A stretch of 64,000 nucleotides of DNA from a virus, in the IMG/VR virus record IMGVR_UViG_3300020421_000003; one strand, written 5' to 3'. The position numbers and the translations under genes are program-made. Position 1 is the first letter of the stretch. Each line of letters begins with the position of its first letter. This document shows positions 37,429 to 54,957 of this stretch, one piece after another. Under the pieces are notes generated by a model that was given only the letters and a program-made list of their open reading frames with translations, was not told the DNA's origin and did not search any database.

Positions 37429-37756
37429 ACCTCTTGTTGAGATCAGGCAGCAGATCATTTCCTGGGTGGTCCTCTGTGGTGCCACGATATGCTTTATGAT
37501 CATAAAAATGCTCATCTTCAATCTCAAGATCATCCCAAAACATTGGATATATGCATAGACAACACTTATTGTATGGTTGTCTATATCCTGGTGGATTAGG
37601 TTTGGATGATATACACAAGGTGATGTATTCATCACTCACGAATTCAATCGTGCCCTCAAAATCTTGAAACCTTGCAGGCATACCAACTTCAAGAGATCGT
37701 AGGATGTTGCTAACTTCTTTAGGCACAGATTCAGAGATAAAGAGTGGGATAGTCAT
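37427..37756 (-). CDS. Hypothetical protein
   Basis: 109 aa, GTIEFVSDEYITLCI motif; ATGA overlap with the oxygenase gene. Confidence 0.7.
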   Translation of the reverse strand: MTIPLFISESVPKEVSNILRSLEVGMPARFQDFEGTIEFVSDEYITLCISSKPNPPGYRQPYNKCCLCIYPMFWDDLEIEDEHFYDHKAYRGTTEDHPGNDLLPDLNKR

Positions 37757-38373
37757 AAGGTTAATGCAGTGTCTTCATAACCAAATGGACCTTTAAGGAA
37801 ATAATTAAAGGCACATGAGTAGCGATCTTCTTCAGTGTCACTGGGTGACACATAGTGAGGCAAGTGAGATGGGAAGATAATAATAGTCCCCTCACATGGT
37901 TCGATTGGAAACTCCCGTTGATTAAGGTAGTTGCTCTCCATGATATCAGGTTGCACAGTGCTTGTCAAGTATGTTGGAAACATGGTGGGCATCCTCAGAC
38001 GAAACTCACCGCAGTTGGGTGGCACCTTAATATACAAACAACCGCTAAACATACTATTGACATGAGTATGCTCAGCGGCGCTATCACCAATGCCATGGTA
38101 ATTAATCCATGATGATTGATGTTGTAATCTGTGTTTACGACTGATTGTTAATGCTTCATGCACATATATGTCCATGTGTTGATCAACAATATCCTTGACA
38201 TCTAAGTGATTAGATAACCACTGTGTGTCCTGTGACATGAATCCATTCTTCTTATATGCACCATCTAGGGACATATCTTGCATGGGTGTCTTTTCTGCCC
38301 TCGTCAATACATCAGGGTCTAAATTAACAACGTCAATATAGACTGGTTGTGAGAAGAGAGGCAGGATTTCCAT
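37753..38373 (-). CDS. Fe(II)/2-oxoglutarate oxygenase (HxH type)
   Basis: LFSQPVY, SWIN, EHTHVNSMFSGCLY, IIFPSHLPHYV, RYSCAFN. Confidence 0.9.
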   Translation of the reverse strand: MEILPLFSQPVYIDVVNLDPDVLTRAEKTPMQDMSLDGAYKKNGFMSQDTQWLSNHLDVKDIVDQHMDIYVHEALTISRKHRLQHQSSWINYHGIGDSAAEHTHVNSMFSGCLYIKVPPNCGEFRLRMPTMFPTYLTSTVQPDIMESNYLNQREFPIEPCEGTIIIFPSHLPHYVSPSDTEEDRYSCAFNYFLKGPFGYEDTALTL

Positions 38374-38528
38374 TACAAATGCAGAGTGTCAACGATATTC
38401 TTTAGTGATTCATTTTGCACGGTTGTCATGTGTCCGTGTTTTTCATGTGCATTCTTCTGATATAAGAAGAGAGCGTGCTTCAACAATGATTTTTCTTGTT
38501 GAGATAGGATGGCAGACTTATTAAACAT
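38373..38528 (-). CDS. Small hypothetical protein (51 aa)
   Basis: Reads MFNKSAILSQQEKSLLKHALFLYQK...LKNIVDTLHL; GGAG RBS; TAATG overlap. Not in the ORF track. Confidence 0.6.
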   Translation of the reverse strand: MFNKSAILSQQEKSLLKHALFLYQKNAHEKHGHMTTVQNESLKNIVDTLHL

Positions 38529-38566
38529 GAGTGATACTCCGACATGAATATCTTATCGTATTCGGA

Positions 38567-39271
38567 TCATTTGTCCATGGATTGCCAAATCTTTTTCACG
38601 GTTTCAACATTTAATCCAGCGATACCTTGATCTTCAACGGGTGGCATATTATTTATTTCGTGATCAACAAACAGTTTATGTCTTGTCTCACTATCCATAT
38701 ATTTGAATGCCAAGATGTATCTGTTAAACATATACTTGGGCGTTGGTGGTCTACCAGTGTGAGGAATACGCCCGTCAAATATAACAACACGCCCAGGTCT
38801 AGGTGTCACAATACGTTGTGCCTCTAATTTATCATCATAGAATATAGTTTCACCACCCCAGTTTGCATTCCACTCTGCATTGAGATATACCAACACAGTC
38901 TTATTATCCTCTGCAAAGTATGGTGCATCACAATGAATCCCTGGGTTATCATTATACTTAAGCACGTTGATATATGCTGCATAACATTCATCGCGTGGTG
39001 GCATATCAGGTAACTTTGCTTCAAGATATGACAACACATCTTTCCACAATGGATTCTCACTACCATGCAATCCTGGAGATTGTAACTCATCAGGATCATC
39101 AACTGGACAATAGTTATAAAACTGGTGTGTCCAATACATCCCTGCTAGATCTAATTCAGGTTGTGATTGTGTGGGTGGCACATCAACTCTAGTGTAATAA
39201 TATGGGAGATGCACTACTTGAGAGAATAACTCCTCACTCACTACCTTAGTATCAAATACTTTAATTGACAT
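38567..39271 (-). CDS. Fe(II)/2-oxoglutarate oxygenase (prolyl-hydroxylase-like, HxD)
   Basis: IHCDAP, LVYLNAEWNANWGGET, PRPGRVVIFDGRIPHTG, RYILAFK. Confidence 0.9.
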   Translation of the reverse strand: MSIKVFDTKVVSEELFSQVVHLPYYYTRVDVPPTQSQPELDLAGMYWTHQFYNYCPVDDPDELQSPGLHGSENPLWKDVLSYLEAKLPDMPPRDECYAAYINVLKYNDNPGIHCDAPYFAEDNKTVLVYLNAEWNANWGGETIFYDDKLEAQRIVTPRPGRVVIFDGRIPHTGRPPTPKYMFNRYILAFKYMDSETRHKLFVDHEINNMPPVEDQGIAGLNVETVKKIWQSMDK

Positions 39272-39878
39272 AGTTACCCATCACATTCATGCTCATGACA
39301 TATCTATCTTTGTTTGTCTTATTAACTTCAGTCTTATGTGTCAACCATCCTGGGAAGAATAGCACATCATTAGTTTGCACATCGATATACTCCCAGTCCA
39401 TACCCATGTCATAATAATTATAGTCAAGAGGTTCTGATAGTTTATACTGGCAGTATGGATTCTTCACCATAAATCTACCACTACCCTCAGGCACTGATAG
39501 ATAAGCAGCACAGGCAACTGTGACATTCTGATGATGATGCTCATCAGTCCATGCACCATTGGGATGCACATTGATCCATGATTCTGACAGCATTTTATTC
39601 ATTGGAGTGAGATGCCATAGGTCCCAGATCCTATTAACACGCTCATAAAACCATGGCATAAAATCTTCAAACTCCTCCCATATATGAGGTGGAGTGATTC
39701 TATTAATGACTACACTTGTAGTGCCACCACCTTTCTCATGGGTTTCATATTTGTTATCGTCGATCACTTGTTGTGCTGCTACCATGTGACCCATGGTCCT
39801 TGCTTGTAGTTTTGAATCTTCAAAACCAAAGTCATACTTACATCGATGAATGATGGGAAATGGATTATACGATTTCAT
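39261..39878 (-). CDS. Fe(II)/2-oxoglutarate oxygenase (HxH type)
   Basis: ESWINVH, EHHHQN, LFFPGWLTHKT, RYVMSMN. Confidence 0.9.
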   Translation of the reverse strand: MKSYNPFPIIHRCKYDFGFEDSKLQARTMGHMVAAQQVIDDNKYETHEKGGGTTSVVINRITPPHIWEEFEDFMPWFYERVNRIWDLWHLTPMNKMLSESWINVHPNGAWTDEHHHQNVTVACAAYLSVPEGSGRFMVKNPYCQYKLSEPLDYNYYDMGMDWEYIDVQTNDVLFFPGWLTHKTEVNKTNKDRYVMSMNVMGNYVN

Positions 39879-40560
39879 GCCATCTCCTGTCTTTACGTTT
39901 CAAAGGACACATATGTTGCATTGGAATAGATACACTCAAACGTTTACCGCTAGGTTGTGCTTGGTGATAACATCTAGCGGGGATGTATAACATATCACCT
40001 GGCGTCATTATAACATCAATGGCACAATCTAGATAGTCATGCTCTGGGTTGTCATGTCTCTGTGACATTAGATTAGAGCAACGGTTATTATATACTTTCC
40101 AGTGTGTCTCTCCCTCTACTTGAATAATAAAATTATTAGCAAAGTCTTCATGAATTCTGAATGATTTAGTCTCACCTATACCAGCATATATGTGCATACT
40201 TGCCTGCACTGGAGGAAACATCTCCTCTACACTTTGCATGATATTCTGTCTCTTTTGATCAATGAAATCAAACTCATTGATGATAAGATTATGACCATCA
40301 TTAAACATCTTAACTAATGTCTCAGCATCAGGAGATGGTGGACCCCATGCTCTCTCATATACTGGGTAGTTTTCAAACGATGCAACAATTCTATTGATAA
40401 ACTGCATCTTAAAATGCTCAGGATGATTGAGACAATACTCTACATCTTGCCAAGTGCAGTAATAGTGAGGATCATCAATTACTCCCTTCCAATAGTGTGG
40501 CGTGTCATCAAGTGACCAGTCTTTGTTAAGACTCTGTAAAATCGAATAGATCATGCTCAC
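39865..40560 (-). CDS. JmjC/cupin-4 oxygenase (YcfD/NO66-like core)
   Basis: SFRIHED, FIIQVEGETHWKVY, MTPGDMLYIPARCYHQA, RLSVS. Confidence 0.88.
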   Translation of the reverse strand: MSMIYSILQSLNKDWSLDDTPHYWKGVIDDPHYYCTWQDVEYCLNHPEHFKMQFINRIVASFENYPVYERAWGPPSPDAETLVKMFNDGHNLIINEFDFIDQKRQNIMQSVEEMFPPVQASMHIYAGIGETKSFRIHEDFANNFIIQVEGETHWKVYNNRCSNLMSQRHDNPEHDYLDCAIDVIMTPGDMLYIPARCYHQAQPSGKRLSVSIPMQHMCPLKRKDRRWHEIV

Positions 40561-41179
40561 AAGTAAAATTTAGATTCAATATAACCCTGAATGGATTAGT
40601 TGTCGGGTTAGATGATGAGTGGAATTGATGACCATCAAATGCAAATAGTTTATTTGCTTTCGGTGTTGCTCTGAAGCACTCATTATATGACTGAGTTCTT
40701 GCTTTTGTCCAGCGTTGGTTAACATCACCATACATTGGATCATCATACTCATGAAAGAATACAGTGTCACCACTGCTGTCATGTAAGTAAAATAATGCTG
40801 CATAGTGATCACTCTCATGATCAGTATGTGGTCCGTTATGTGAGTCTTTACCGTTTGCTAGTTGTAATGCCAACCTAGCACGAAAGAATTGCACAGGATA
40901 AGGTAATGCATCACTCACACTATCTAGTAGTGGTTGAAACATAGGCAGAAATGGACTCTCTACGCCCTCCTGATCTAACAGTACATGAGTGAATCCCAGA
41001 GTCTTTTGCTCCTCTGGAATATCACCTAGATGCACATCACCAAACTGTGCAGTTTGAGGTGTGTAACTAATATCTTCAGATAGAAAAAACCATGGGAATC
41101 CATTCATCCCTGATGTCAACGTGTATAACCTCTGAAGGTAACTAGGGGTCAGTAGATCATCTACTTGGATATATTTCAT
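40526..41179 (-). CDS. Fe(II)/2-oxoglutarate oxygenase (HxD type)
   Basis: FPWFF, GPHTD, FYLHDSSGDTVFF, PKANKLFAFDGHQFHSSSNP, RVILNLN. Start trimmed to MKYIQVDD. Confidence 0.88.
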   Translation of the reverse strand: MKYIQVDDLLTPSYLQRLYTLTSGMNGFPWFFLSEDISYTPQTAQFGDVHLGDIPEEQKTLGFTHVLLDQEGVESPFLPMFQPLLDSVSDALPYPVQFFRARLALQLANGKDSHNGPHTDHESDHYAALFYLHDSSGDTVFFHEYDDPMYGDVNQRWTKARTQSYNECFRATPKANKLFAFDGHQFHSSSNPTTNPFRVILNLNFTCEHDLFDFTES

Positions 41180-41795
41180 GATAATGATTAGAAAATGCTG
41201 TAATATTAAATGATAGAGAGATCCTGTCACCTTCACCAGCAGACTTGCTGACTGCATGTTGTAACCATGCTGGAAAGATTACGAGTTGATCTTCTTCTGG
41301 AAACACATCATGCTCTGTCTCATTCATGTGATCCCATCGATGTACATTGTTACCATCACCCCAGTATTCTTTCATTTGTGAGTAACTAAGGTCACGAATG
41401 AATGAGAGATGACCATAACAACAGTCAGGTAGTTTCAAATAATATACACCAGACAACACACCACCAGGATGTGTGTGGACGTGATTAAATGCACCCTTGT
41501 TATTGATATTGATCCACATGTTGATCATCTTCAACGTGTAGTCATTGAATCCAAACTCATCAGCAGCAGCATATGCTCGCTCCATGATGGCGTTTCTAAT
41601 ATCTTTGAGTGGATTGATATCCATGACACTATCAATAAAGTCATGCGATTGCCATCCACCCATGTTGGATTGTTTACGACCCTCAGGGTCTTCATCCTTC
41701 ACACGATATACAAAATTAGTAAGAGATTCTCGGTCTATGCCTACATTATCAAACTTCCAAACAGGTGTTGGAAATATCAATTCAGTTTTCATCAC
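41157..41795 (-). CDS. Fe(II)/2-oxoglutarate oxygenase (HxH type, TIGR02466-like)
   Basis: IFPTPVW, SNMGGWQS, WININ..G.FNHVHTHPG..LSGVYY, IFPAWLQHAV, RISLSFN. Confidence 0.92.
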   Translation of the reverse strand: MMKTELIFPTPVWKFDNVGIDRESLTNFVYRVKDEDPEGRKQSNMGGWQSHDFIDSVMDINPLKDIRNAIMERAYAAADEFGFNDYTLKMINMWININNKGAFNHVHTHPGGVLSGVYYLKLPDCCYGHLSFIRDLSYSQMKEYWGDGNNVHRWDHMNETEHDVFPEEDQLVIFPAWLQHAVSKSAGEGDRISLSFNITAFSNHYHEIYPSR

Positions 41796-42169
41796 TCAGC
41801 AAAAGTAAACTCACGCTCAGTAACTTCTGGATCCACATGATTTTTATAGAGAGACAATGCTTCAACAGCACCTGATAGTTTATTCATCATATCTCTCTTG
41901 ATTTGCAATTCTTCCAGTGAGATCTTTGTAATCGTAGAAGTGTAATGCATGTTATCAAGTGCTTCCTGCAGTTTGATATACTCTTCCTTGACATCATCAT
42001 ACTGTTGGATGAAATTCATGACGAGTTGATCAAAAGTGATAAGTCCTTCAATCTCTTCTAGGACTCCTTTCTTTTCTTCTTCAGTTGCAACTCCTGCCTG
42101 TGTAGCAAGATCCACTTCAAGCACATCTTGCACGCCTGGTGCAGTGATCTGCGATTCTTCTTTTGCCAT
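41792..42169 (-). CDS. Hypothetical coiled-coil protein
   Basis: 125 aa, acidic and helical, embedded in the oxygenase operon. Confidence 0.75.
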   Translation of the reverse strand: MAKEESQITAPGVQDVLEVDLATQAGVATEEEKKGVLEEIEGLITFDQLVMNFIQQYDDVKEEYIKLQEALDNMHYTSTITKISLEELQIKRDMMNKLSGAVEALSLYKNHVDPEVTEREFTFAE

Positions 42170-42171
42170 AG

Positions 42172-43059
42172 TTACATAAACCTCTTGATGTTTTTATTTA
42201 GTGCAAGGATTACCTTGTGTGATGCAATGCGCTCCTTGATGGTTTCCATCTCCATAAAATGTTTATGTCGTTGGTATTCCATGATAGCATTGTTTTCAAA
42301 GTCTGCCTCATTGGCAGTCTCGCAATGAAAATCAATGTTCCTATTACTTAGGAGACTTCTATGCACTGGCACCCATTGACAGAGTGGAGTGCCTGCTTTA
42401 ATTAGATACTCACCCTCCTCAATCTTGTGCCAGAATAGTTGTAAGTTAATCTCGTATGAATACGATGGATCAACTATACCTGTAGGTGGTGTGAATCTAT
42501 CCTCATCCCAATAGGGAATAGGCATTTGAATAAACACAATATCAGGGTGTGCTTGTACTCTCCATGGCAATTCTAGTTTAATTGTCCAGTCAAGTACATC
42601 TTTCTGCTGGTTAACTAACTCACGCACACCTGTAGTCTGCTCAGGTATATGTGCTGACACATATTTGCCTGGATTACCTGGACCACCTGTTTTTGTGCAG
42701 AATCTCATTTGTGAGATCCATTGAAAGTTTACACCCGTGCCATCAGTCTTGATCAGAATATCAGCAGGACATTTTAACACATAACCTGAGTCCATAACAT
42801 CACGCAATGCAGGGCATGTTACGGCATGTTCGTATAACTCAGGGATGCTATCATCTCCTCTTAATTCAGCAGACATTCTCTCCCAGAGTTTAGTCACCCT
42901 GAGATATGGGCAGCGTTTCTCTTTACTAGCAGTCTGCTTTAGTGCTTCTGTCCGCCACTTACGATGCAGTTTTGCTGCAGGTATCCATGGTTGCAATTCA
43001 GCAACTCCAGGATCAACGGAATAGAATCTAACCCACGGTTTCTTCTTCTTGAAGATCAT
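42172..43059 (-). CDS. Hypothetical beta-clip (dUTPase-like fold) protein associated with oxygenase clusters
   Basis: CPALRDVMDSGYVL, KLELPW, GIVD, IKAGTPLCQWVP pattern. Confidence 0.65.
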   Translation of the reverse strand: MIFKKKKPWVRFYSVDPGVAELQPWIPAAKLHRKWRTEALKQTASKEKRCPYLRVTKLWERMSAELRGDDSIPELYEHAVTCPALRDVMDSGYVLKCPADILIKTDGTGVNFQWISQMRFCTKTGGPGNPGKYVSAHIPEQTTGVRELVNQQKDVLDWTIKLELPWRVQAHPDIVFIQMPIPYWDEDRFTPPTGIVDPSYSYEINLQLFWHKIEEGEYLIKAGTPLCQWVPVHRSLLSNRNIDFHCETANEADFENNAIMEYQRHKHFMEMETIKERIASHKVILALNKNIKRFM

Positions 43060-44641
43060 AAATGTTGTCCCTCAGGTACTCATAGTGTGATGGTAGTTGA
43101 TCAACCCAGTCGATCATCATTTTGCGGTCTTGTTGGTATTTAGTATGAATATCATGGATGTCATCCATCCACTCATCTAATTCAGGGGCAGTAGACTTCT
43201 TCTCGTGATACATTCCTTCTGAGAATGGACGATAACCCTGACCAGCAGCAATGTAGATAGATCCACTATGTTGCTCCAGGTTATTGAATGCATTCTCCAT
43301 ACCTTCAAGCATAACAACTGTATTACCATGAGCAACCCTAGTTGAATGTCTCCATGTAGGGTCAATATCAAAGTTAATGTTAGTGCAATCTCTCCAGTAT
43401 TGGTTGTCATCACGTTGACTGAGTGCATAGTGAAGTGCAACGAAACACTTCATTGCTTCAATCATGTTATCACAACTGTAGTTAAATGCATCCTGCTCCA
43501 TTCTAGCATAGAATCCCTGTCTTTTCTCTAAAACATCACACAACAGCAAGACATTCTCGTGTGTTGTCATCAGTCCAGTAGATTCTAGAGGTTCTAAGAA
43601 TGCATAGGACAATCCAATGCCCACAACATTCTTAACCCATGCCTTATTACGTTTACCATGTTTAATATCAATCTTGCGTAGTTTGGCATCTTTAGCAATT
43701 TCAGGCGTATATCTCTCACTGAGATACTCTCTAAACTCTACCTCTGCCTCACACTCATTGATATAATCAGACGAGTAAACATATCCTGTGCCAACACGAT
43801 TCCATAGTGGGATATTCCATACCCATCCTGCATCCATTGCAACACAGTCAGTATATGTTTCCATCTGATTCTCACGATCAGAGTATGGAATCTGTGTTGC
43901 TAGTGCTGTATCATTGAATAGTTTATCCTTGAATGATATAAACTCACTACCCATATGCTGCTCAAGTAACAGTGACTTGAAACCTGTGCAGTCAATGTAT
44001 AGATCAGCACGAATCAATCCATCCTGATCAGTAACAAGTGAGTCAATACTACCATCAGGATTCTTCATTACCTTCTCAATTGTGCCCTTGAGATGTAACA
44101 CACCATTAGGAATACAGATAGTATCTCTTAGATAGTTACCAAACAATCCTGCATCAAAATGATATGCAGTATCCTTATCCATATTATAGATGCAGTCAGG
44201 AATAGCATCAGCAGAGATCTTACATTGATCTGCTAAGTATGTCTGACTGTTGGCAAAGTTAGCAAATTGCTCTGGTGGATACTTCTCCATACCATATTCA
44301 CATTGCAACTCAAAGTATCTCATCAATGAGTCTTTATAATCAAATAGATCAAACTCTCCGAATGGATATTGGAATCTCTCTCCCTTACCATCTCTGAAAT
44401 TCTTAAATGCAATTGATGTCTTGTAAGTTGCATTACATGCAGGCATCCAGTCTTTATCTTTCAATCCCAATCTTCTTAGGAATCGATTAAAGTGACCCAA
44501 TGTAGATTCACCCACACCAATTGGTCCCTCAGCACCTTCAATCAGACCAATCTGCATCTTAGGGAATGTTTTGGATAACATTGCTGCTGTCATCCAACCA
44601 CTGCTACCACCACCAACAATAACAATAGATTCAACTCGCAT
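43028..44641 (-). CDS. Flavin-dependent halogenase (tryptophan halogenase/PrnA family)
   Basis: IVGGGSSGW (FAD binding), GVGEST, ATYK (catalytic Lys), AYHFDA, IDCTGF, GWVWNIP, FLEPLESTG. Confidence 0.93.
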   Translation of the reverse strand: MRVESIVIVGGGSSGWMTAAMLSKTFPKMQIGLIEGAEGPIGVGESTLGHFNRFLRRLGLKDKDWMPACNATYKTSIAFKNFRDGKGERFQYPFGEFDLFDYKDSLMRYFELQCEYGMEKYPPEQFANFANSQTYLADQCKISADAIPDCIYNMDKDTAYHFDAGLFGNYLRDTICIPNGVLHLKGTIEKVMKNPDGSIDSLVTDQDGLIRADLYIDCTGFKSLLLEQHMGSEFISFKDKLFNDTALATQIPYSDRENQMETYTDCVAMDAGWVWNIPLWNRVGTGYVYSSDYINECEAEVEFREYLSERYTPEIAKDAKLRKIDIKHGKRNKAWVKNVVGIGLSYAFLEPLESTGLMTTHENVLLLCDVLEKRQGFYARMEQDAFNYSCDNMIEAMKCFVALHYALSQRDDNQYWRDCTNINFDIDPTWRHSTRVAHGNTVVMLEGMENAFNNLEQHSGSIYIAAGQGYRPFSEGMYHEKKSTAPELDEWMDDIHDIHTKYQQDRKMMIDWVDQLPSHYEYLRDNIYDLQEEETVG

Positions 44642-46076
44642 ATAATGTCCTCAAATAATAATTAAGCGGTGTCGTCATAGTATCTATACCCTCGTAGGGA
44701 GGGATCTCAAAGGTATTTGCACGAGCATTAGTAGGCACACCACCGAAGAATTCCATCTCATCTAGTATAACATCATTAAATGGATTCCATCCATGTCCTG
44801 CCATCACACACAACAATGAATCACTCTCCCATGTAATCTTGATCGGGAAGTGAATCGATTGCTCCATATAATTGATCTGGGCAGACTTAAACAGATTATC
44901 ATATGGATATCTGATATTAGAAACTGCTCTCCAATATGGTGAGTCATTACGTTGAGTCATTGCATAATGCAGTGCAACGAAAGATGCAAACCCATCAAAA
45001 TTATAGTTGGAGTTGTTATTGAAGGTGTCTCTCATAAACTGAGTGACATGATCCTTACCTGCCATTACTCGGCAGAATTGTGTCAAGAATGTGTGTGTAG
45101 ATAGCAGACCATTTGACTCTAGAGGTTCGATAAATCCTGCACTCAAACCAATAGAAACAACCTTACCATTCCATATCTCTTTCTTACGTCCTGTCTTATA
45201 TTCTATCAGTCTGAATCCATGCTCATCGGGATTAACCTTGAGGTGAGTTGCAAACTCCTGTAGTGCATCATCTGTAGAGATATACTTATCACAGAAATTA
45301 TATCCTGTGCCAATTCTCTCCCATGTTGGTACATTCCATACCCATCCTGATGACAATGCAGTGCAATCAGTGACAGGTTTCAACTGCTCCTCTTTATTAG
45401 TATAAGGGAGACGTGTTACCCATGCTCTATTATTAGGTAGGTAGTCACTGTAATCAATCCACTCACTATCATTCAGCAGTGATTTGAATCCAGTGCAATC
45501 AAAGAATAGATCATAGTCTTCATTCAATATATCCCTAGTTAGATGCTCCTGCTCATACCTTACACCACGAGGTATTGCATAGTTTTCCTTCAACCAGTTT
45601 GCAAACTTAACTGCATCAAAGTGAAACCCTGTTTGTCCACCAATCTTAAAGTATTCATGATCAACAGGCAGCAAATTCTTTTCAGCACAATATGCTGTCA
45701 CATAAAAGTCTTTGGCAAACTGATCATTAGTCCACCCACGTTTTGCCTGAGCATACCACCACACATCTGGTGGGATATCAGTATCAGTTCTTGGTTGACC
45801 AAAAGGATACTGCCAAGGTCTATCACCAACTTTATTAAAATTATGAAACCTTACACTAATCTTATAGGTTGCATCACATGCAGTCATCCACTCTTCATCT
45901 TTAAGACCTAGGAAGTGCAACCACTGTCTAAACAACTGCGTTGTAGATTCACCCACGCCAACACTGGCAACTTTGGGCGATTCAATCAGGGTTATATCCC
46001 AATCTGGAAATGCTTTTACAAGAGTAGAGGCGGTCATCCAACCAGACGATCCGCCACCAACAATACAAATTTTCAT
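44631..46076 (-). CDS. Flavin-dependent halogenase (tryptophan halogenase/PrnA family), second paralogue
   Basis: IVGGGSSGW, GVGEST, ATYK, GFHFDA, FDCTGF, GWVWNVP, FIEPLESNG. Confidence 0.93.
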   Translation of the reverse strand: MKICIVGGGSSGWMTASTLVKAFPDWDITLIESPKVASVGVGESTTQLFRQWLHFLGLKDEEWMTACDATYKISVRFHNFNKVGDRPWQYPFGQPRTDTDIPPDVWWYAQAKRGWTNDQFAKDFYVTAYCAEKNLLPVDHEYFKIGGQTGFHFDAVKFANWLKENYAIPRGVRYEQEHLTRDILNEDYDLFFDCTGFKSLLNDSEWIDYSDYLPNNRAWVTRLPYTNKEEQLKPVTDCTALSSGWVWNVPTWERIGTGYNFCDKYISTDDALQEFATHLKVNPDEHGFRLIEYKTGRKKEIWNGKVVSIGLSAGFIEPLESNGLLSTHTFLTQFCRVMAGKDHVTQFMRDTFNNNSNYNFDGFASFVALHYAMTQRNDSPYWRAVSNIRYPYDNLFKSAQINYMEQSIHFPIKITWESDSLLCVMAGHGWNPFNDVILDEMEFFGGVPTNARANTFEIPPYEGIDTMTTPLNYYLRTLYAS

Positions 46077-46111
46077 ATAATAAAGAAAGTCTTAGACTTT
46101 AGATCACTATC

Positions 46112-46540
46112 TTACACAGGTGGAGTCCAGTTGTCAACCCATTGATCCCATGCTTTACGTCCTTCAAGTTGTGAGTGCTTAGGATTAGGCACGTATTCAG
46201 GAATACTACTAGGTGAAGTTGTGGTTGCTCTTACATTAGCAATGTGATCTTTCCAACGTGTGCCACCATCTAACTGATCCAAATACTGCATCTCTAGTTG
46301 CTCACCAGTGGTGCCATATCCTAGGACACGGGTAACAGTTGCACGCTCTTTGTGATCCTCAAGGTCATCTCTATGGACACATACGCCATTGATCATACTG
46401 TGCTCATAGGTGACATCATCAGGTACTGGCACCCACTTCATGTTAGCGTCTGGACCTTCATAGATCTCAAACTTATCTTCTTCATCGCAGATGTCGTTAA
46501 GTTGACCTGTCGCTGCGTCGCAGATTGCCCATTTAGCCAT
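46112..46540 (-). CDS. Tail fibre assembly/chaperone-like protein
   Basis: R...YGTTGEQLEMQYLD..G..RWKDHIANVR motif of small proteins that follow fibre genes; AAGGAG RBS. Confidence 0.55.
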   Translation of the reverse strand: MAKWAICDAATGQLNDICDEEDKFEIYEGPDANMKWVPVPDDVTYEHSMINGVCVHRDDLEDHKERATVTRVLGYGTTGEQLEMQYLDQLDGGTRWKDHIANVRATTTSPSSIPEYVPNPKHSQLEGRKAWDQWVDNWTPPV

Positions 46541-46565
46541 GATAGATTAAAATCTCCTTCGTTGT

Positions 46566-46572
46566 TATTTAT
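46566..46572 (-). promoter_or_regulatory. T4-type late promoter ATAAATA
   Basis: Overlaps the end of the 46572 gene, 26 nt before the next ATG. Identical motifs upstream of genes at 20153, 20263, 47402, 48232, 49067, 54939, 58565 and 63849. Confidence 0.75.
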
Positions 46573-47381
46573 CAGCTGTAGTATTCGTAAACTACAACTA
46601 CACCTTCACGTCCTCTAGCACCTCTGTTACCGTGCTGAGATCCGTTACCACCCGCGCCCCATGCGGCGTGTGATTGGTGTCTATGTGAATAGTTGCCTTG
46701 GTTGTGTGATGATGGTTGAGATCCACCCATGAAGGATGATCCACCAGAGTGGTTGCCATAACTATAGTGAGATCCGTGACCATTGCCACCTCCACCATAG
46801 ATATTCAGGGTGCCACCTGACCCATTGCCACCGATACCACCAGCATGTTGCTGACGGCAGTTTGCGCCGTATCCGCCCGATGCTGAGCAGAATGATCCAA
46901 AACTTGATGAGTTACCGTTACCACCACATCCAGCGTAGTTTGTACCACCGCCAGGACTACCGATAGTAACTGAAACACTCGAAGTGTTAGTTACATCAAT
47001 AACTCTCTCTGCCATACCACCAGCACCTGCTGATTCACAATAACCTGATCCCCCGCCACCAGCGCCGACTACGACGACTTTAATTGATGCAACACCACTA
47101 GGTCTAGACCATGTGCCATTAGATGTCCACACTTGCATGGACCTGAATCCACCTGTAGCAGAAACTCCTGACCATTGTAGACTACTACCATTGGTAGATA
47201 GATACTTACCACTTTGTCCCGAAAGCGACGGGATCACATAAGTAGATGCCCCCGAAATACTGCCGTTAATGTTAAGGTTGGTGACCTTTAATTCACCGTT
47301 CGCAGTAATTTGACCACTGTTGAGGGTAAATCCACCCACACCAGAAGGATCTCGTACTGTAGTAACTTTTAAGACGCTCAT
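46572..47381 (-). CDS. Gly/His-rich adhesin-like fibre protein, copy 3
   Basis: 269 aa; MQVWTSNGTW.RP and VVVVGAGGGG..GVVVV.E bracket a glycine-rich domain; paralogue of both upstream genes. Confidence 0.8.
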   Translation of the reverse strand: MSVLKVTTVRDPSGVGGFTLNSGQITANGELKVTNLNINGSISGASTYVIPSLSGQSGKYLSTNGSSLQWSGVSATGGFRSMQVWTSNGTWSRPSGVASIKVVVVGAGGGGSGYCESAGAGGMAERVIDVTNTSSVSVTIGSPGGGTNYAGCGGNGNSSSFGSFCSASGGYGANCRQQHAGGIGGNGSGGTLNIYGGGGNGHGSHYSYGNHSGGSSFMGGSQPSSHNQGNYSHRHQSHAAWGAGGNGSQHGNRGARGREGVVVVYEYYS

Positions 47382-47404
47382 TTCGTAATGCCTTGACTTA
47401 GTAT

Positions 47405-48214
47405 TTATCCGAAGAATTCTTGGACTACAACTACACCCTCACGACCTCTAGCACCTCGGTTACCATGCTGAGATCCATTGCCACCAGCACCCCACGCGGC
47501 GTGAGATTGGTGTCTATGGGAATAGTTTGATTGACCATGAGACGATGGTTGTCCACCACCATAGTATGATCTACCAGAGGAATGGTTACCGTAACTGTGG
47601 TGTGATCCATGACCATTACCACCGCCACCGTATACATTTAGGGTGCCACCTGATCCATTACCACCAATGCCACCTGCGTGCTGTTGACGACAGTTAGCAC
47701 CATATCCACCAGATGCAGAGCAATAACTACCGAAAGAAGATGAGTTACCGTTACCACCACATCCTGCATAGTTTGTGCCACCACCAGGACTACCAACAGT
47801 AACTGAAACTGATGAGATATTAGTTACATCAATTACTCTTTCAGCGGTGCCACCAGCACCAGCGGACTCAGTATATCCACTGCCACCACCACCTGCTCCA
47901 GTAACAGTCACGATGATAGATTTACAGTTACTAGGTCTAGTCCATGTGCCATTAGATGTCCACACTTGCATAGATCTAATACCAGATCCACCACCAGCAC
48001 CTGCCCATTCAAGACCAGATGCACCTGCTCTCAGGTATTTGCCTTCGTTACCAGACATATTAGGAATAATGTAATCACTATTACCTGAGATCTTACCGTT
48101 GATGACGATGTTAGAGACCGTCAACGTCCCGATAGCGTGGATTTTACCTGTAGAAAGGAGAAACCCAGAGTTATCAGAAAGATCTTTAATAGATGATACT
48201 CTAATCTGTGACAT
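47405..48214 (-). CDS. Gly/His-rich adhesin-like fibre protein, copy 2
   Basis: 269 aa, colinear with copies 1 and 3. Confidence 0.8.
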   Translation of the reverse strand: MSQIRVSSIKDLSDNSGFLLSTGKIHAIGTLTVSNIVINGKISGNSDYIIPNMSGNEGKYLRAGASGLEWAGAGGGSGIRSMQVWTSNGTWTRPSNCKSIIVTVTGAGGGGSGYTESAGAGGTAERVIDVTNISSVSVTVGSPGGGTNYAGCGGNGNSSSFGSYCSASGGYGANCRQQHAGGIGGNGSGGTLNVYGGGGNGHGSHHSYGNHSSGRSYYGGGQPSSHGQSNYSHRHQSHAAWGAGGNGSQHGNRGARGREGVVVVQEFFG

Positions 48215-48234
48215 AATAGTCTCTTTTTTAGTAT

Positions 48235-49044
48235 TTATCCGTAGAATTCGTGGACTACGACCACACCCTCACGTCCTCTAGCACCTCTATTTGAGTGCTG
48301 AGATCCGTTACCACCAGATCCCCATGCAGCATGAGACTGGTGTCTGTGAGAATAGTTTGATTGACCGTGGGATGATGGTTGTGCGCCACCGAAGTAACTC
48401 ACTCCTGAAGTGTGGTTACCATATGAGTGGTGAGATCCGTGTCCGTTACCCCCACCTCCGTAGATGTTAAGGGATCCTCCAGATCCGTTACCACCGTATC
48501 CACCAGCGTGCTGTGTACTACAGTTGGCACCGATTCCGCCACTGGCACTACAGTAGGATCCAAAGGAAGAAGAGTTACCGTTACCGCCACAACCAGAATA
48601 GTTTGTACCGCCACCAGGACTACCAATAGTAACTGAAACTGATGATACATTGGTCACATCAACTTGTCTCTGTGAAGTGCCAGCAGCACCACCAGATTCA
48701 CAGTGTCCGCTACCTCCACCACCTGCACCTGTCACCGTAACCATGATAGTTTTAACACCAGATGGTTTCGTCCAAGTACCATTAGAAGTCCATACTTGCA
48801 TGGATCTTACACCAGCAGCACTACTCAGATCACCCCATTGAAGTGATGATCCATTAGTGGTTAAAAATTTACCCTGATAACTAGAAGGGTTTGGAATAAT
48901 ATAGTTAGACGATCCAGCAATATTCCCATCAACTGAGAGATTAGTAACGGTTAGTGTGCCGTTAGCGGTCAATCCACCACTCGACAAGGTGAATCCACCG
49001 ATTCCACCTAAGTCCTTAATAGCGTTTACATTTAGCTGTGCCAT
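48235..49044 (-). CDS. Gly/His-rich adhesin-like fibre protein, copy 1
   Basis: 269 aa, colinear with copies 2 and 3. Confidence 0.8.
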   Translation of the reverse strand: MAQLNVNAIKDLGGIGGFTLSSGGLTANGTLTVTNLSVDGNIAGSSNYIIPNPSSYQGKFLTTNGSSLQWGDLSSAAGVRSMQVWTSNGTWTKPSGVKTIMVTVTGAGGGGSGHCESGGAAGTSQRQVDVTNVSSVSVTIGSPGGGTNYSGCGGNGNSSSFGSYCSASGGIGANCSTQHAGGYGGNGSGGSLNIYGGGGNGHGSHHSYGNHTSGVSYFGGAQPSSHGQSNYSHRHQSHAAWGSGGNGSQHSNRGARGREGVVVVHEFYG

Positions 49045-49065
49045 GCTACTTTAATTCCTACGTTG

Positions 49066-49620
49066 TTATTTATGTAATTTCCTGGTCTTAAACATCAGAG
49101 TCATTCTAAGCGAATCACTATACTGACTAACTGGTCTGACTCCGTGCCAGACATTACCAGGAAAACCTAAGATTGATCTAAACTTAGGTAATACCGAATG
49201 AGTTATCAATTGGTTTTCTTTATCCCAAAGAATAGTTTCTCCTCCAGAATCGACACCCCAAGATTTATTCACATAGACAATTATAGTCTTACTTGTATCT
49301 AGGGAATCATCAGTGTGTAGTCTTTGATCTTGCCCACATGTTTGAGCATTTGCATAACAACGAATCAAACAATCATCAGGATCTAAGTATGGTTTGATAT
49401 CTTTCCACACATCAAGTATCAATCCACTAATTTCATGCTCACAGTCATAACATGACTCCCCCAATGTAGTCGGTCCACCGAAAAAGATAGTCCAATGTGG
49501 AATACTCCTCCTTACTATACTAGGATGACTGAGATATCCCCATTTCCAGGCAGAATTTCTCAGGTATTCATATAATTCAGTTGCTCTAGATTCAGATATC
49601 GCATTTTCATGATAAAACAT
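49066..49620 (-). CDS. Fe(II)/2-oxoglutarate oxygenase (prolyl-hydroxylase-like, HxD)
   Basis: RCYANAQT.GQD..LHTDD, YVNKSW...GGET, WHGVRP, RMTLMFK. Confidence 0.9.
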   Translation of the reverse strand: MFYHENAISESRATELYEYLRNSAWKWGYLSHPSIVRRSIPHWTIFFGGPTTLGESCYDCEHEISGLILDVWKDIKPYLDPDDCLIRCYANAQTCGQDQRLHTDDSLDTSKTIIVYVNKSWGVDSGGETILWDKENQLITHSVLPKFRSILGFPGNVWHGVRPVSQYSDSLRMTLMFKTRKLHK

Positions 49621-49626
49621 ATTCTT

Positions 49627-54912: not shown

Positions 54913-54957
54913 CTTCTATAAGAGTCCTGCTATATGGTTATTTATTAAGGGTCAAGA

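What the first reader, a model, noticed from the sequence alone, without database searches (positions are those of the whole stretch)
37753..49620. Candidate virion-tailoring system: triplicated His/Gly-rich adhesin in one late transcription unit with two halogenases and an array of 2OG oxygenases
Seen: a 2OG oxygenase (49620), three 269-aa Gly-rich paralogues and a fibre-chaperone-like gene. After a 35-nt gap come two flavin-dependent halogenases, a beta-clip protein, a coiled-coil protein and six oxygenases (three HxH, two HxD, one JmjC), mostly with overlapping or abutting start/stop codons. The nearest upstream promoters are late ATAAATA boxes, and I saw no early cassette until 37428. The adhesin domain carries a conserved run of modifiable side chains (GHGSH.SYGNH, NYSHRHQSHAAWG). 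Established: PrnA-family enzymes halogenate electron-rich aromatics, and JmjC cupin-4 (YcfD/NO66) and prolyl/asparaginyl hydroxylases modify proteins. Halogenase and 2OG oxygenase genes are known in cyanophages but usually treated as orphan metabolic genes. Inference: the block is a RiPP-like post-translational pathway that halogenates or hydroxylates the receptor-binding protein or other fibre proteins during assembly, tuning host range, stability or metal binding.
Basis: partly seen in the sequence, partly recalled or inferred. Interest (0 to 1): 0.88.

Follow-up and report, generated by a model that had tools for sequence, protein, structure and literature searches.

The report
Cyanophage fibre genes beside halogenase-oxygenase cassette
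A marine T4-like cyanophage carries three short tail-fibre genes and their chaperone next to an already described cassette of two halogenases and six oxygenases. The pairing is kept in many related phages, which makes testable (but does not show) the idea that these enzymes chemically modify the fibres.

Summary
There is one 2OG oxygenase, three 269-aa Gly_rich_2 paralogues, and a 142-aa protein. Then come two VirX1-type flavin halogenases, a dUTPase-fold protein, an acidic 125-aa protein, and six 2OG/JmjC oxygenases.

The three paralogues fold like the cyanophage Pam3 short tail fibre. The 142-aa protein is predicted to bind their Gly-rich domain, as a fibre chaperone would.

The enzyme cassette is not new. 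Iyer et al. 2010 described it in Syn9, and VirX1 of Syn10 is a characterised orthologue whose natural substrate is unknown.

What I could not find in the held literature is the linkage. VirX1-type halogenases lie within 0-3.3 kb of tandem short Gly-rich fibre genes in at least six gene arrangements, including ones where the enzyme block is inverted.

"One late transcription unit" does not hold. Late ATAAATA promoters precede each fibre gene and the chaperone. A sigma-70-like promoter, conserved in relatives, lies directly upstream of the first halogenase.

Fibre modification is my leading reading at about 35%, and nothing here demonstrates it. The rivals are small-molecule, nucleotide or host-protein substrates, or mere hotspot adjacency.

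The parts
51334..57192 (-). Two tail-fibre genes (744 aa at 54958-57192; 1192 aa at 51334-54912). They form the upstream part of the fibre module.
   Evidence: phrog_693 and phrog_529 'tail fiber protein'. AATAAATAA late box at 54939, 27 nt before the 1192-aa start.
50451..51308 (-). 285-aa fibre-associated protein that always follows the 1192-aa fibre in relatives.
   Evidence: phrog_29506 and phrog_7459, plus a weak tail-fibre phrog. Present in all 80 fibre-anchored loci.
49066..50454 (-). Variable insert: a 275-aa protein with no family hit, plus a 184-aa P4H-type 2OG oxygenase (HTD).
   Evidence: PF13640, E 6.7e-8. Among the related loci compared only L013 carries this pair. Other lineages hold a different oxygenase at the same spot.
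46572..49044 (-). Three 269-aa paralogous short fibres (48235-49044, 47405-48214, 46572-47381). Each has a variable N-terminal ~80 aa followed by a TNF-like and glycine-rich domain.
   Evidence: PF21722 above cut-off. AF2 mean pLDDT 86, with the best PDB fold match to the Pam3 fibre 7YPX/7YFW (E 1e-8, TM 0.54-0.57). The duplicates are old: dS > 1.2 and dN/dS ~0.1 in the C-domain. Each gene has its own ATAAATA box.
46112..46540 (-). 142-aa protein, probably the fibre assembly chaperone.
   Evidence: phrog_1787 only, with no Pfam or PDB sequence hit. It always lies after the Gly-rich genes and stays on their strand when the enzyme block is inverted. Predicted complex with the Gly-rich domain: 0.81 against 0.00 for the best control. 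It has its own GATAAATAA box at 46566.
46109..46137 (-). Sigma-70-like promoter (TTGACA-17-TAAGAT) directly upstream of halogenase 1.
   Evidence: A site scoring >=10 of 12 is present in 23 of 87 distinct upstream sequences of relatives. The -35 lies in codons W-V-D-N-W of the 142-aa gene and the -10 lies at or after its stop codon.
43028..46076 (-). Two flavin-dependent halogenases: 481 aa at 44631-46076, and 537 aa at 43028-44641. The second is the VirX1 orthologue.
   Evidence: PF04820. Best PDB match is VirX1 6QGM, E 1e-160 and 4e-91. GGGSSGW, the ATYK lysine, GWVWN(I/V)P and EPLES are all kept.
41792..43059 (-). 295-aa dUTPase/dCTP-deaminase-fold protein with invariant Cys50, Cys82 and His137, plus a 125-aa acidic helical protein.
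   Evidence: AF2 mean pLDDT 81. Foldseek matches dUTPases at probability 1.0 and TMt 0.5-0.6. This matches the 'dUTPase-fold protein with a conserved cysteine' of PMC2938197. It stays with the halogenases in inverted blocks.
37753..41795 (-). Six oxygenases and a 51-aa ORF: 212 aa TIGR02466 type (HVH); 243 aa (HTD); 231 aa JmjC_2/cupin-4 (HED); 205 aa TIGR02466 type (HHH); 234 aa P4H type (HCD); 206 aa TIGR02466 type (HTH).
   Evidence: Pfam and NCBIfam hits. Motifs read. The 243-aa protein has only phrog_274/phrog_81 hits and a sub-threshold DUF6445 hit.

Best explanation
Anatomy (about 90% confident). The stretch holds two adjoining modules of a T4-like cyanomyovirus.

(1) The distal end of the tail-fibre module. 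It has three anciently duplicated Pam3-gp24-type short fibres. Each has a divergent N-terminal adaptor and a conserved TNF-like plus polyglycine receptor-binding domain, and each has its own late promoter. A 142-aa chaperone that grips the Gly-rich domain follows them.

(2) The Syn9-type enzyme cassette. It has two VirX1-type FADH2-dependent halogenases, a dUTPase-fold protein, an acidic helical protein and six 2OG/JmjC oxygenases. It starts at its own sigma-70-like promoter and can also be read through from the late promoter 490 nt upstream, because no strong terminator intervenes.

Mechanism (inferred, about 35%). The cassette acts on proteins of the fibre module. The enzymes would be made from early or middle times onward. 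They would hydroxylate (P4H-type, JmjC cupin-4 and TIGR02466-type oxygenases) and halogenate (VirX1-type enzymes, using host-supplied reduced flavin and seawater halide) exposed Tyr, His or Trp side chains of the short fibres or neighbouring fibre proteins during chaperone-assisted folding. This would alter receptor binding, stability or metal binding.

Shown: the gene identities, folds, catalytic motifs and conserved linkage. Inferred: the substrate and the effect.
For: Linkage with the halogenase:
- In 80 loci anchored only on the fibre C-terminus (76-98% identical), every locus with enough downstream DNA reads fibre, 285-aa gene, 1-3 Gly-rich genes, 142-aa gene, 1-2 halogenases, then oxygenases. 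Halogenase identity falls as low as 37%.
- The named phages Syn9, P-TIM40, S-RIM44, P-RSM6 and S-WAM1 have the same order.
- In 43 loci found with a Gly-domain profile and having at least 4 kb on both sides, 24 of 25 with >=3 tandem Gly-rich genes carry a halogenase, against 1 of 18 with fewer (Fisher p 7e-10; the loci are not phylogenetically independent).
- Adjacency survives in at least six arrangements. These include convergent inverted enzyme blocks (L141, L190, L170), Gly x4 then halogenase (L145), a halogenase lying between the fibre and neck genes (L122) and a 1258-aa Gly-rich fibre (L113).

Oxygenases and fibres:
- Different 2OG oxygenases have been inserted just upstream of the first Gly-rich gene in three lineages.
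- In Pelagibacter phage HTVC008M a Gly_rich_2 gene lies about 1 kb from a run of 2OG oxygenase genes (four annotated as such plus a fifth labelled ferrochelatase).

Enzyme plausibility:
- Both halogenases keep the catalytic motifs.
- VirX1 is reported to have an unusually open active site that accepts bulky substrates, and its natural substrate is unknown (PMC8407142).
- Peptide-acting flavin halogenases exist (titles and abstracts).
- P4H-type and JmjC cupin-4 enzymes are protein hydroxylases (family knowledge; PMC2938197).
- A 2OG 'prolyl 3,4-dihydroxylase' was detected in a cyanomyovirus virion preparation (PMC12801897).

Fibre side:
- Halogenase-linked Gly-rich proteins keep Tyr149, His179 and His202 in 95-96% of cases, against 0-13% of unlinked ones. 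This comparison is confounded by clade.
- Fibre fold.
- Chaperone: predicted complex score 0.81, best of 3 controls 0.00. That mark was reached by 58 of 80 solved complexes and 2 of 110 mismatched pairs. The runs share at least 93% of contacts and the partner pLDDT is at least 85. A similar complex (Pam3 gp24-gp25) is solved, so the pass may reflect likeness to it.
Against: - No modification has been observed anywhere.
- The linkage may be inheritance within one large clade plus a recombination hotspot at the end of the fibre module.
- The cassette has its own sigma-70-like promoter in the window's clade and in an inverted-block lineage.
- Some relatives have a hairpin with a T-run at the junction, or a separate late promoter.
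- More distant phage halogenases lie among AMGs or replication genes. S-MbCM6 and S-PM2 have a halogenase but no Gly_rich_2 gene. In S-B64 and S-SSM5 the two genes are tens of kb apart.
- 2OG oxygenase arrays also occur in cyanophages without these fibres.
- VirX1 activity has been shown only on small molecules.
- The dUTPase-fold protein suggests a nucleotide-like ligand.
- The His-rich loops are not conserved across the wider family and could simply bind metal.
- Copy numbers of fibres and halogenases do not co-vary.
Confidence: 0.35

Rival explanations
1. Small-molecule pathway (the published reading). The halogenases and dioxygenases successively halogenate and hydroxylate a free amino acid, peptide-derived metabolite or host metabolite during infection. 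The position next to the fibre genes is incidental.
For: Iyer et al. 2010 proposed this for the Syn9 cluster (PMC2938197). VirX1 halogenates many small aromatic compounds in vitro (PMC8407142). A sigma-70-like promoter suits early or middle metabolic genes. Distant phage halogenases sit among AMGs, as in S-MbCM6.
Against: No scaffold-building enzyme (NRPS, PKS, ATP-grasp), precursor peptide, transporter or flavin reductase lies in or near the cassette. This reading does not explain why adjacency to short Gly-rich fibre genes is kept through inversions and in different fibre backgrounds.
Confidence: 0.25
2. Nucleotide or DNA modification. The dUTPase-fold protein binds a (deoxy)nucleotide, and the halogenases or oxygenases modify a base or nucleotide pool.
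For: The 295-aa protein has a dUTPase/dCTP-deaminase fold and invariant Cys and His residues. It travels with the halogenases even in inverted blocks. VirX1's measured substrates include aza-indole heterocycles. A DNA methyltransferase and a helicase lie downstream.
Against: The oxygenase families here (P4H-type, TIGR02466, JmjC cupin-4) are not the TET/JBP or AlkB nucleic-acid types. The dUTPase catalytic motifs were not checked. Several lineages have the halogenase without the dUTPase-fold gene, for example S-WAM1 and L122.
Confidence: 0.12
3. Host-protein takeover. The JmjC cupin-4, P4H-type and halogenase enzymes modify host proteins such as ribosomal or cell-envelope proteins, rather than virion proteins.
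For: The JmjC_2 family to which the 231-aa protein belongs includes the YcfD/NO66/MINA ribosomal-protein hydroxylases (PMC2938197). A sigma-70-like promoter would allow early expression.
Against: There is no specific evidence for this. It does not explain the fibre linkage.
Confidence: 0.1
4. No common pathway. The end of the fibre module is a hyperplastic insertion hotspot where unrelated oxygenase and halogenase genes accumulate and are inherited together.
For: Oxygenase number and family vary widely between relatives, from 0 to 7. Oxygenase genes are scattered elsewhere in cyanophage genomes. The p275 plus oxygenase pair is a recent insert.
Against: The halogenase, chaperone and Gly-rich trio is far more constant than a hotspot would predict. 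It recurs where the surrounding genes differ, including between the fibre and neck genes with no oxygenases at all.
Confidence: 0.15

Closest known systems
Syn9 gp41-gp54 dioxygenase/halogenase cluster (Iyer, Abhiman, de Souza, Aravind 2010, PMC2938197)
   Same: Same gene families in the same order: two Trp-type halogenases, a dUTPase-fold protein with a conserved Cys, a MINA/NO66-clade JmjC and several distantly related classical 2OG dioxygenases. The Syn9 locus aligns gene for gene with the window.
   Different: The window has 6 (+1) oxygenases where Syn9 has 10. The paper read the cluster as secondary-metabolite synthesis and did not connect it to the adjacent fibre genes. The promoter structure and the cross-lineage linkage to Gly-rich fibres are described here.
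VirX1, flavin-dependent halogenase of cyanophage Syn10 (PDB 6QGM)
   Same: The 537-aa protein aligns end to end with VirX1 (E 1e-160, about 50% identity) and keeps GxGxxG, the catalytic Lys, WxWxIP and Glu. The 481-aa paralogue also matches VirX1 best.
   Different: There are no activity data for these copies. The 481-aa copy is internally shorter. VirX1's halide preference (I > Br > Cl) and trimeric state cannot be assumed for them.
Cyanophage Pam3 tail fibre gp24 with chaperone gp25 (PDB 7YPX/7YFW; PMC9608196)
   Same: Short (~270 aa) fibre with TNF-like plus glycine-rich domains. Foldseek E 1e-8, 25% identity. A small gene directly downstream encodes a product predicted to bind the Gly-rich domain through its N-terminal part.
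   Different: The N-terminal ~80 aa is predicted at low confidence, with short beta-strands and no helix, unlike the helical bundle of gp24. There are three paralogues rather than one gene. The 142-aa protein has no detectable sequence similarity to gp25. Pam3 is a freshwater minimal myophage with no halogenase reported.
S16/T2-type gp38 fibre-tip adhesin (polyglycine sandwich)
   Same: Conserved glycine-rich motifs with variable loops between them. The cyanophage proteins were annotated 'gp38 / tail fiber assembly' by similarity (phrog_863). PMC9608196 relates Pam3 gp24 to S16 gp38.
   Different: S16 gp38 did not appear among the Foldseek matches listed. The middle domain is TNF-like rather than a beta-helix. 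Here the Gly-rich domain is the conserved part and the N-terminus is the variable part among the paralogues.
RiPP halogenases (MibH, SrpI, ChlH) and collagen/P4H systems of giant viruses
   Same: These are precedents for flavin halogenases acting on ribosomal peptides (abstracts) and for virus-encoded hydroxylases acting on virion fibre proteins (my own knowledge, not tested here).
   Different: No leader/core precursor, recognition element or protease was found here. There are no collagen-like Gly-X-Y runs in the fibre-module proteins. The best halogenase match is VirX1, not a RiPP enzyme.

Membership tests
Flavin-dependent (Trp-type) halogenase, PF04820 | Pfam model above its gathering score over the full length | tested here: met
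   312 and 352 bits against a cut-off of 21.
Flavin-dependent (Trp-type) halogenase, PF04820 | GxGxxG flavin motif, WxWxIP motif, catalytic Lys (VirX1 K79 region) and conserved Glu | tested here: met
   GGGSSGW, ATYK, GWVWN(I/V)P and (F/L)(I/L)EPLES are present in both copies when aligned to 6QGM.
Flavin-dependent (Trp-type) halogenase, PF04820 | Halogenating activity and a partner flavin reductase | not testable with these tools
   No reductase gene was recognised among the ORFs annotated from about 29.6 to 63.8 kb. The rest of the window was not annotated. A host reductase would be needed.
2OG-Fe(II) oxygenase superfamily (classical and JmjC) | Family model match | tested here: met
   PF13640, PF13759 or PF08007 above cut-off for six of the seven proteins. 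The 243-aa protein has only phrog_274/phrog_81 hits and a sub-threshold DUF6445 hit.
2OG-Fe(II) oxygenase superfamily (classical and JmjC) | HxD/E...H iron-binding triad | tested here: inconclusive
   HTD, HTD, HCD and HED are present in four proteins. The three TIGR02466-type proteins have HVH, HHH and HTH instead. The distal His and the 2OG-binding residue were not mapped.
Pam3 gp24-type short tail fibre (TNF-like + Gly_rich_2) | Gly_rich_2 domain at the C-terminus and a matching fold | tested here: met
   PF21722 at 38-43 bits against a cut-off of 24.3. The domain is C-terminal in nearly all of the 150 relatives listed out of 1775 clusters. Foldseek to 7YPX gives E 1e-8.
Pam3 gp24-type short tail fibre (TNF-like + Gly_rich_2) | N-terminal alpha-helical docking bundle; trimer; presence in the virion | tested here: not met
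   The N-terminal 80 aa is modelled with short beta-strands at pLDDT 60-74, with no helix. Trimer state and virion presence could not be tested. No proteomic flag was found for this gene cluster in the part of the PMC3037559 supplement that is held.
Tail-fibre assembly chaperone (Pam3 gp25 / TfaMu type) | Encoded directly downstream of the fibre gene and binds its distal domain | tested here: met
   The position is constant, and the gene stays on the same strand as the fibres in inverted arrangements. Predicted complex 0.81 against 0.00 for the best control. This is a prediction and may echo the solved Pam3 complex.
Tail-fibre assembly chaperone (Pam3 gp25 / TfaMu type) | Sequence or family similarity to known chaperones | tested here: not met
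   No Pfam hit and no PDB sequence hit. There are only weak atlas leads to DUF2977 and XkdW at 0.86-0.87.
RiPP pathway | Precursor peptide with leader and core, recognition element, protease or exporter | tested here: not met
   None was recognised among the ORFs of the block. The putative substrates are folded structural proteins of 269 aa.
dUTPase/dCTP-deaminase-like (beta-clip) fold | Fold match | tested here: met
   Foldseek probability 1.0 to many dUTPases, TMt 0.5-0.6, 10-13% identity. The catalytic motifs were not examined.
T4-type late promoter (NATAAATA) | Motif on the coding strand about 20-30 nt upstream of late-gene starts | tested here: met
   Strand ratio 15:0. Seven of the sites between 37 and 64 kb lie 18-27 nt before a start codon. 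The total count is not above chance (15 against 10.9 expected). The motif is as reported for S-PM2 and Syn9 (PMC2984593). None lies within 130 nt of halogenase 1.

The most novel reading that the evidence does not exclude
VirX1-type viral halogenases and the accompanying oxygenases are virion-maturation enzymes. They would halogenate (with iodide or bromide from seawater) and hydroxylate conserved Tyr or His residues of Pam3-type short tail fibres while the chaperone holds them. Abundant marine cyanophages would then carry halogenated receptor-binding proteins, a post-translational modification not known for any virus particle. It would also give VirX1 its missing natural substrate.
Probability: 0.2. 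Interest if true: 0.9.

Novelty: new member of a known kind. Interest (0 to 1): 0.55.

Why it matters
The natural role of cyanophage halogenases has been open since 2005, and the role of the large 2OG oxygenase arrays has been open for almost as long. P-SSM2's copy was first dismissed as a transient gene, and VirX1 was characterised only on synthetic substrates.

This work shows that the VirX1-type enzymes are almost always encoded beside a defined set of short receptor-binding fibres and their chaperone, in several gene arrangements. That points to one concrete candidate substrate, and cultured phages (Syn9, Syn10, P-TIM40) are available to test it.

If confirmed, it would add enzymatic halogenation and hydroxylation to the ways phages tune host recognition. 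It would also link marine halogen chemistry to viral infection. If refuted, the cassette remains an ordinary and already described accessory gene cluster.

Tried and rejected
- Megablast of the whole block against phage records found only a 476-nt match to P-TIM40, so there is no close named relative. The window's own assembly is not held.
- tblastn with a Gly-rich paralogue lost the C-terminal domain to the low-complexity filter and returned only N-terminal matches. I replaced it with profile searches.
- The search for homologous proteins returned only close relatives without names.
- Sequence search of the PDB gave nothing for the Gly-rich protein, the 142-aa protein or the 295-aa protein.
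- The Syn9 transcriptome paper (Doron et al. 2016), which could settle expression timing, is not held. A later Syn9 paper has no supplement held. The P-HM2 transcriptome paper does not mention these genes.
- The supplement of PMC3037559 gave no proteomic flag for the gp38-like cluster in the part that is held.
- Contexts of distant Gly_rich_2 fibres were mostly on contigs too short to judge.
- The hairpin in the 35-nt gap is weak (-6.7 kcal/mol, z -1.06), so I rejected it as a terminator. Terminator-like and sigma-70-like sites are not enriched overall in the block.
- I looked for collagen-like Gly-X-Y runs as P4H targets. None occur beyond a 12-residue stretch in two paralogues.
- I considered the 142-aa protein as a Trp-rich substrate peptide and dropped the idea. 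Its conserved part is the N-terminal 105 aa, and its Trp-rich tail varies between relatives.
- NCBIfam hits of the halogenase N-termini to QhpG and LodB cover only the Rossmann motif and carry no information.

Full report
**What is there.**

All genes from 64 kb down to about 29 kb lie on the minus strand. In the order of transcription they are:

- the gp5 baseplate hub (61085-63826), several virion proteins and two tail fibres (744 and 1192 aa);
- a 285-aa fibre-associated protein;
- a 275-aa protein with no family hit;
- a 184-aa P4H-type 2OG oxygenase (49066-49620);
- three 269-aa Gly_rich_2 proteins;
- a 142-aa protein;
- after a 35-nt gap, two Trp-type halogenases (481 and 537 aa);
- a 295-aa protein and an acidic 125-aa protein;
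- six oxygenases: PF13759/TIGR02466 type three times, PF13640 type once, JmjC_2 once, and one recognised only through PHROGs;
- a 51-aa ORF among them.

Downstream follow a 109-aa gene, a 220-aa gene, a DNA methyltransferase, another oxygenase and a helicase. That includes the iron-motif count (HVH, HHH, HTH; HTD, HCD; HED in the JmjC protein) and the mostly overlapping start and stop codons.

The phage is a T4-like cyanomyovirus. Its nearest named relative is P-TIM40, whose fibre C-terminus is 82% identical. The window's own assembly is not held.

**The three paralogues are short tail fibres.**

They are 72-73% identical overall. The N-terminal ~80 residues are divergent and the C-terminal 190 residues are nearly invariant. 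The duplication is old. Synonymous sites are saturated (dS 1.2-1.4 in the C-domain), while dN/dS is about 0.1. The similarity is therefore purifying selection, not recent gene conversion.

An exhaustive profile search finds 1775 cluster representatives. In nearly all of the 150 listed, the domain sits at the C-terminal end, in proteins of 78 to 1258 aa. The AlphaFold model has a mean pLDDT of 86, and above 90 through most of the Gly-rich domain. It matches the cyanophage Pam3 fibre best (7YPX/7YFW, E 1e-8, TM 0.54-0.57). The Bxb1 tail tip and the TNF-like/glycine-rich domain of ALK/LTK follow.

In Pam3 this is a 'simplified' trimeric fibre. [quoted passage not shown] So the 'adhesin' label is reasonable, as an inference from fold.

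Unlike Pam3 gp24, the N-terminus here is not predicted to be helical. It is also the part that differs among the three copies. This suggests three fibres that dock at different sites or on different partners.

The His-rich stretches lie in loops between the conserved glycine motifs. They are conserved only within the close clade.

**The 142-aa protein is probably the fibre chaperone.**

It has no Pfam or PDB sequence match and only weak atlas leads to fibre-region families. It does follow the Gly-rich genes in every relative. It also stays on their strand when the enzyme block is inverted.

A predicted complex of its alignment with three copies of the Gly-rich domain scored 0.81, against 0.00 for the best of three controls. 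That mark was reached by 58 of 80 solved complexes and 2 of 110 mismatched pairs. The runs share at least 93% of contacts, and the partner pLDDT is at least 85. Its residues 6-76 contact residues 114-204 of the fibre. Because the Pam3 gp24-gp25 complex is solved, this pass may partly reflect likeness to that structure. It supports binding but does not show it.

**The enzyme cassette is already known.**

Both halogenases match VirX1 of cyanophage Syn10 best (6QGM; E 1e-160 and 4e-91). Both keep the flavin motif, the catalytic lysine, WxWxIP and the glutamate.

VirX1 is a characterised trimeric halogenase that prefers iodide. It has an open active site, and its natural substrate is unknown (PMC8407142).

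The 295-aa protein has a dUTPase/dCTP-deaminase fold, with invariant Cys50, Cys82 and His137.

Iyer et al. 2010 described exactly this combination in Syn9: two halogenases, a dUTPase-fold protein with a conserved cysteine, a MINA/NO66-type JmjC and many unrelated classical dioxygenases. They interpreted it as secondary-metabolite synthesis (PMC2938197).

Other cyanophage papers treat prnA as a transient or accessory metabolic gene, and the oxygenases as DNA-repair or 2OG-consuming enzymes (PMC1079782, PMC3037559, PMC2984593, PMC10452541). None of the papers I could read links the cassette to the fibre genes.

**Linkage with the fibre genes.**

- Syn9, P-TIM40, S-RIM44, P-RSM6 and S-WAM1 (four named genera plus the unclassified P-RSM6) all read fibre, Gly-rich x2-3, small protein, halogenase(s), then oxygenases.
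- In 80 IMG/VR loci chosen only by similarity of the fibre C-terminus, every locus with enough downstream sequence shows the same order. It has 1-3 Gly-rich genes and 1-2 halogenases, and halogenase identity drops to 37%.
- A search with a profile of distant Gly-rich domains gave 76 loci. Of the 43 with at least 4 kb on both sides, 24 of 25 with three or more tandem Gly-rich genes carry a VirX1-type halogenase within 3.3 kb. Only 1 of 18 with fewer do (Fisher p 7e-10).

The loci are related, so this p-value overstates independence. The arrangements do differ, however:

- the window type;
- giant-fibre types;
- convergent inverted enzyme blocks (L141, L190, L170);
- four Gly-rich genes, then a halogenase, then seven oxygenases on the other strand (L145);
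- a type with no oxygenases, in which the halogenase lies between the fibre module and the neck genes gp14/gp15 (L122);
- a 1258-aa Gly-rich fibre two genes from a halogenase (L113).

Different oxygenases have also been inserted directly upstream of the first Gly-rich gene in three lineages.

There are counter-examples. More distant halogenases (37% identity or less) sit between recombination genes (S-B64), among photosynthesis AMGs (S-MbCM6), in a carbohydrate cluster 7 kb from three Gly-rich genes (S-SSM7), or between the terminase genes (HTVC008M). S-MbCM6 and S-PM2 have a halogenase but no Gly_rich_2 gene. In S-SSM5 the two genes are about 33 kb apart. Syn19 and P-HM2 have neither gene.

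**Transcription signals.**

ATAAATA occurs 15 times on the minus strand and never on the plus strand. It lies 18-27 nt upstream of the starts of gp5, the 445-aa gene, the 1192-aa fibre, each of the three paralogues and the 142-aa gene. A CTAAATA precedes the 125-aa gene. This matches the NATAAATA late promoter reported for S-PM2 and Syn9 (PMC2984593).

None lies before the halogenases. Instead TTGACA-17-TAAGAT lies at 46137-46109, 32 nt before the halogenase-1 start. On its own this is one of 16 such sites on the minus strand. Across relatives it carries more weight. A site scoring at least 10 of 12 is present at the same place in 23 of 87 distinct upstream sequences. The -35 is embedded in the codons W-V-D-N-W. 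The -10 varies (TAAGAT, TAAAAT, TAGAAT, TATAAT, TATTAT) but fits TAnnAT in nearly all, at or after the stop codon.

Signals at this junction differ between lineages:

- P-TIM40-type phages have TGCTATAAT there.
- An inverted-block lineage has TTGACA-17-TATACT before its first halogenase.
- Some lineages that lack halogenase 1 have a strong hairpin with a T-run at the junction.
- Others have a terminator followed by their own TATAAATA.

So the junction is a regulatory boundary, not the inside of an operon. In the window the gap hairpin is weak (-6.7 kcal/mol, z -1.06). Late read-through from the promoter at 46566 therefore remains possible. An early-type promoter together with an upstream late one is how 'middle' expression is thought to arise in these phages. 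Timing cannot be settled without RNA data, and the Syn9 dataset that would settle it is not held.

**Weighing the readings.**

For fibre modification:

- The halogenase, chaperone and short-fibre trio is much more constant than the surrounding genes.
- The oxygenase families present are protein hydroxylase types.
- Peptide-acting flavin halogenases exist.
- VirX1 has an open active site.
- A 2OG prolyl hydroxylase-like protein has been found in a cyanomyovirus virion preparation.
- Halogenase-linked Gly-rich proteins keep Tyr149, His179 and His202 in 95-96% of cases, against 0-13% of unlinked ones. This comparison is confounded by clade.

Against it:

- There is no direct evidence of any modification.
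- The cassette has its own early-type promoter.
- Phages exist that have a halogenase but no such fibres.
- Oxygenase arrays occur without halogenases or these fibres.
- A dUTPase-fold partner hints at a nucleotide-like ligand.
- The His clusters may simply bind metal, as His clusters do in T4 fibre tips (from general knowledge; another first-stage note makes the same suggestion).

I put fibre or virion-protein modification at about 35%. The rivals are a small-molecule pathway at 25%, hotspot adjacency with no shared pathway at 15%, nucleotide or DNA chemistry at 12% and host-protein modification at 10%. 'RiPP-like' is not a good label. No precursor peptide, recognition element or protease is present, and the candidate substrates are folded 269-aa structural proteins.

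**Verdict.**

The cassette itself is a known cyanophage feature. The single-late-operon premise fails.

The conserved coupling of VirX1-type halogenases to Pam3-type short fibres and their chaperone is a useful observation, and I could not find it in the held literature. It turns an old open question into a direct experiment on cultured phages.

Interest is moderate to high (0.55). As a locus it is a new member of a known kind. The most novel reading, halogenated or hydroxylated receptor-binding proteins in virions, has roughly a one-in-five chance and would be of high interest if true.

Noticed in passing
window 49066-50454: The 275-aa protein with no family hit and the 184-aa P4H-type oxygenase form a variable insert. 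Among the related loci compared, only L013 has it. L018, L041-L043 and P-RSM6 carry a different 2OG oxygenase at the same position, just upstream of the first Gly-rich gene.
   Followed up: partly
L002 4649-6238 (P-TIM40 gp043) and L019, L020, L025, L060-L065: In P-TIM40-type phages the middle paralogue is 528-531 aa instead of 269 aa, apparently a lengthened or duplicated Gly-rich fibre.
   Followed up: no
window 41157-41795, 39261-39878, 37753-38373: The three TIGR02466/2OG-FeII_Oxy_5 oxygenases have HxH (HVH, HHH, HTH) where the classical triad has HxD/E. The distal ligand was not mapped.
   Followed up: no
L122 13499-14758; L123 11073-12302; L113 12095-13369: In one T4-like lineage a 409-424-aa protein with no Pfam hit lies between the chaperone and the halogenase. 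In L122 and its closest relatives its DNA encodes a C-terminal C-W-D-C-H-E-C-E-like motif. In L122 the neck genes gp14/gp15 follow the halogenase and there are no oxygenases.
   Followed up: partly
S-PM2 record AJ630128.1 121319-122608: The S-PM2 halogenase match contains one in-frame TAA, so it may be a pseudogene or split gene. The region has no annotated feature in that record.
   Followed up: no
window 40682-40711 and 37940-37968: Two strong sigma-70-like sites (11 of 12; the second with a TG extension) lie inside oxygenase genes, upstream of the JmjC gene and of the 109-aa gene. Conservation was not checked.
   Followed up: no
L033-L039, L049 (junction before the halogenase): Relatives that lack the first halogenase have a GC-rich hairpin followed by 7 T immediately before the start codon of the remaining halogenase, downstream of the sigma-70-like site. 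How that gene is then expressed is unclear.
   Followed up: partly
window 47405-48214 (residues 149, 179, 202 of the 269-aa protein): Tyr149, His179 and His202 are kept in 95-96% of halogenase-linked Gly-rich proteins and in 0-13% of unlinked ones. They are candidates for a metal site or a modification site, but the contrast is confounded by clade.
   Followed up: partly
HTVC008M record NC_020484.1 55083-59681: In a Pelagibacter myophage a 301-aa Gly_rich_2 ORF lies about 1 kb from a run of 2OG oxygenase genes on the opposite strand (four annotated as such plus one labelled ferrochelatase). A halogenase paired with a further oxygenase sits between the two terminase genes 8 kb away.
   Followed up: partly
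P-SSM2 record NC_006883.2 173637-176697: The distant P-SSM2 halogenase is divergently adjacent to two genes annotated 'L-shaped tail fiber protein assembly'. My Gly-domain profile found no Gly-rich gene within 12 kb.
   Followed up: partly
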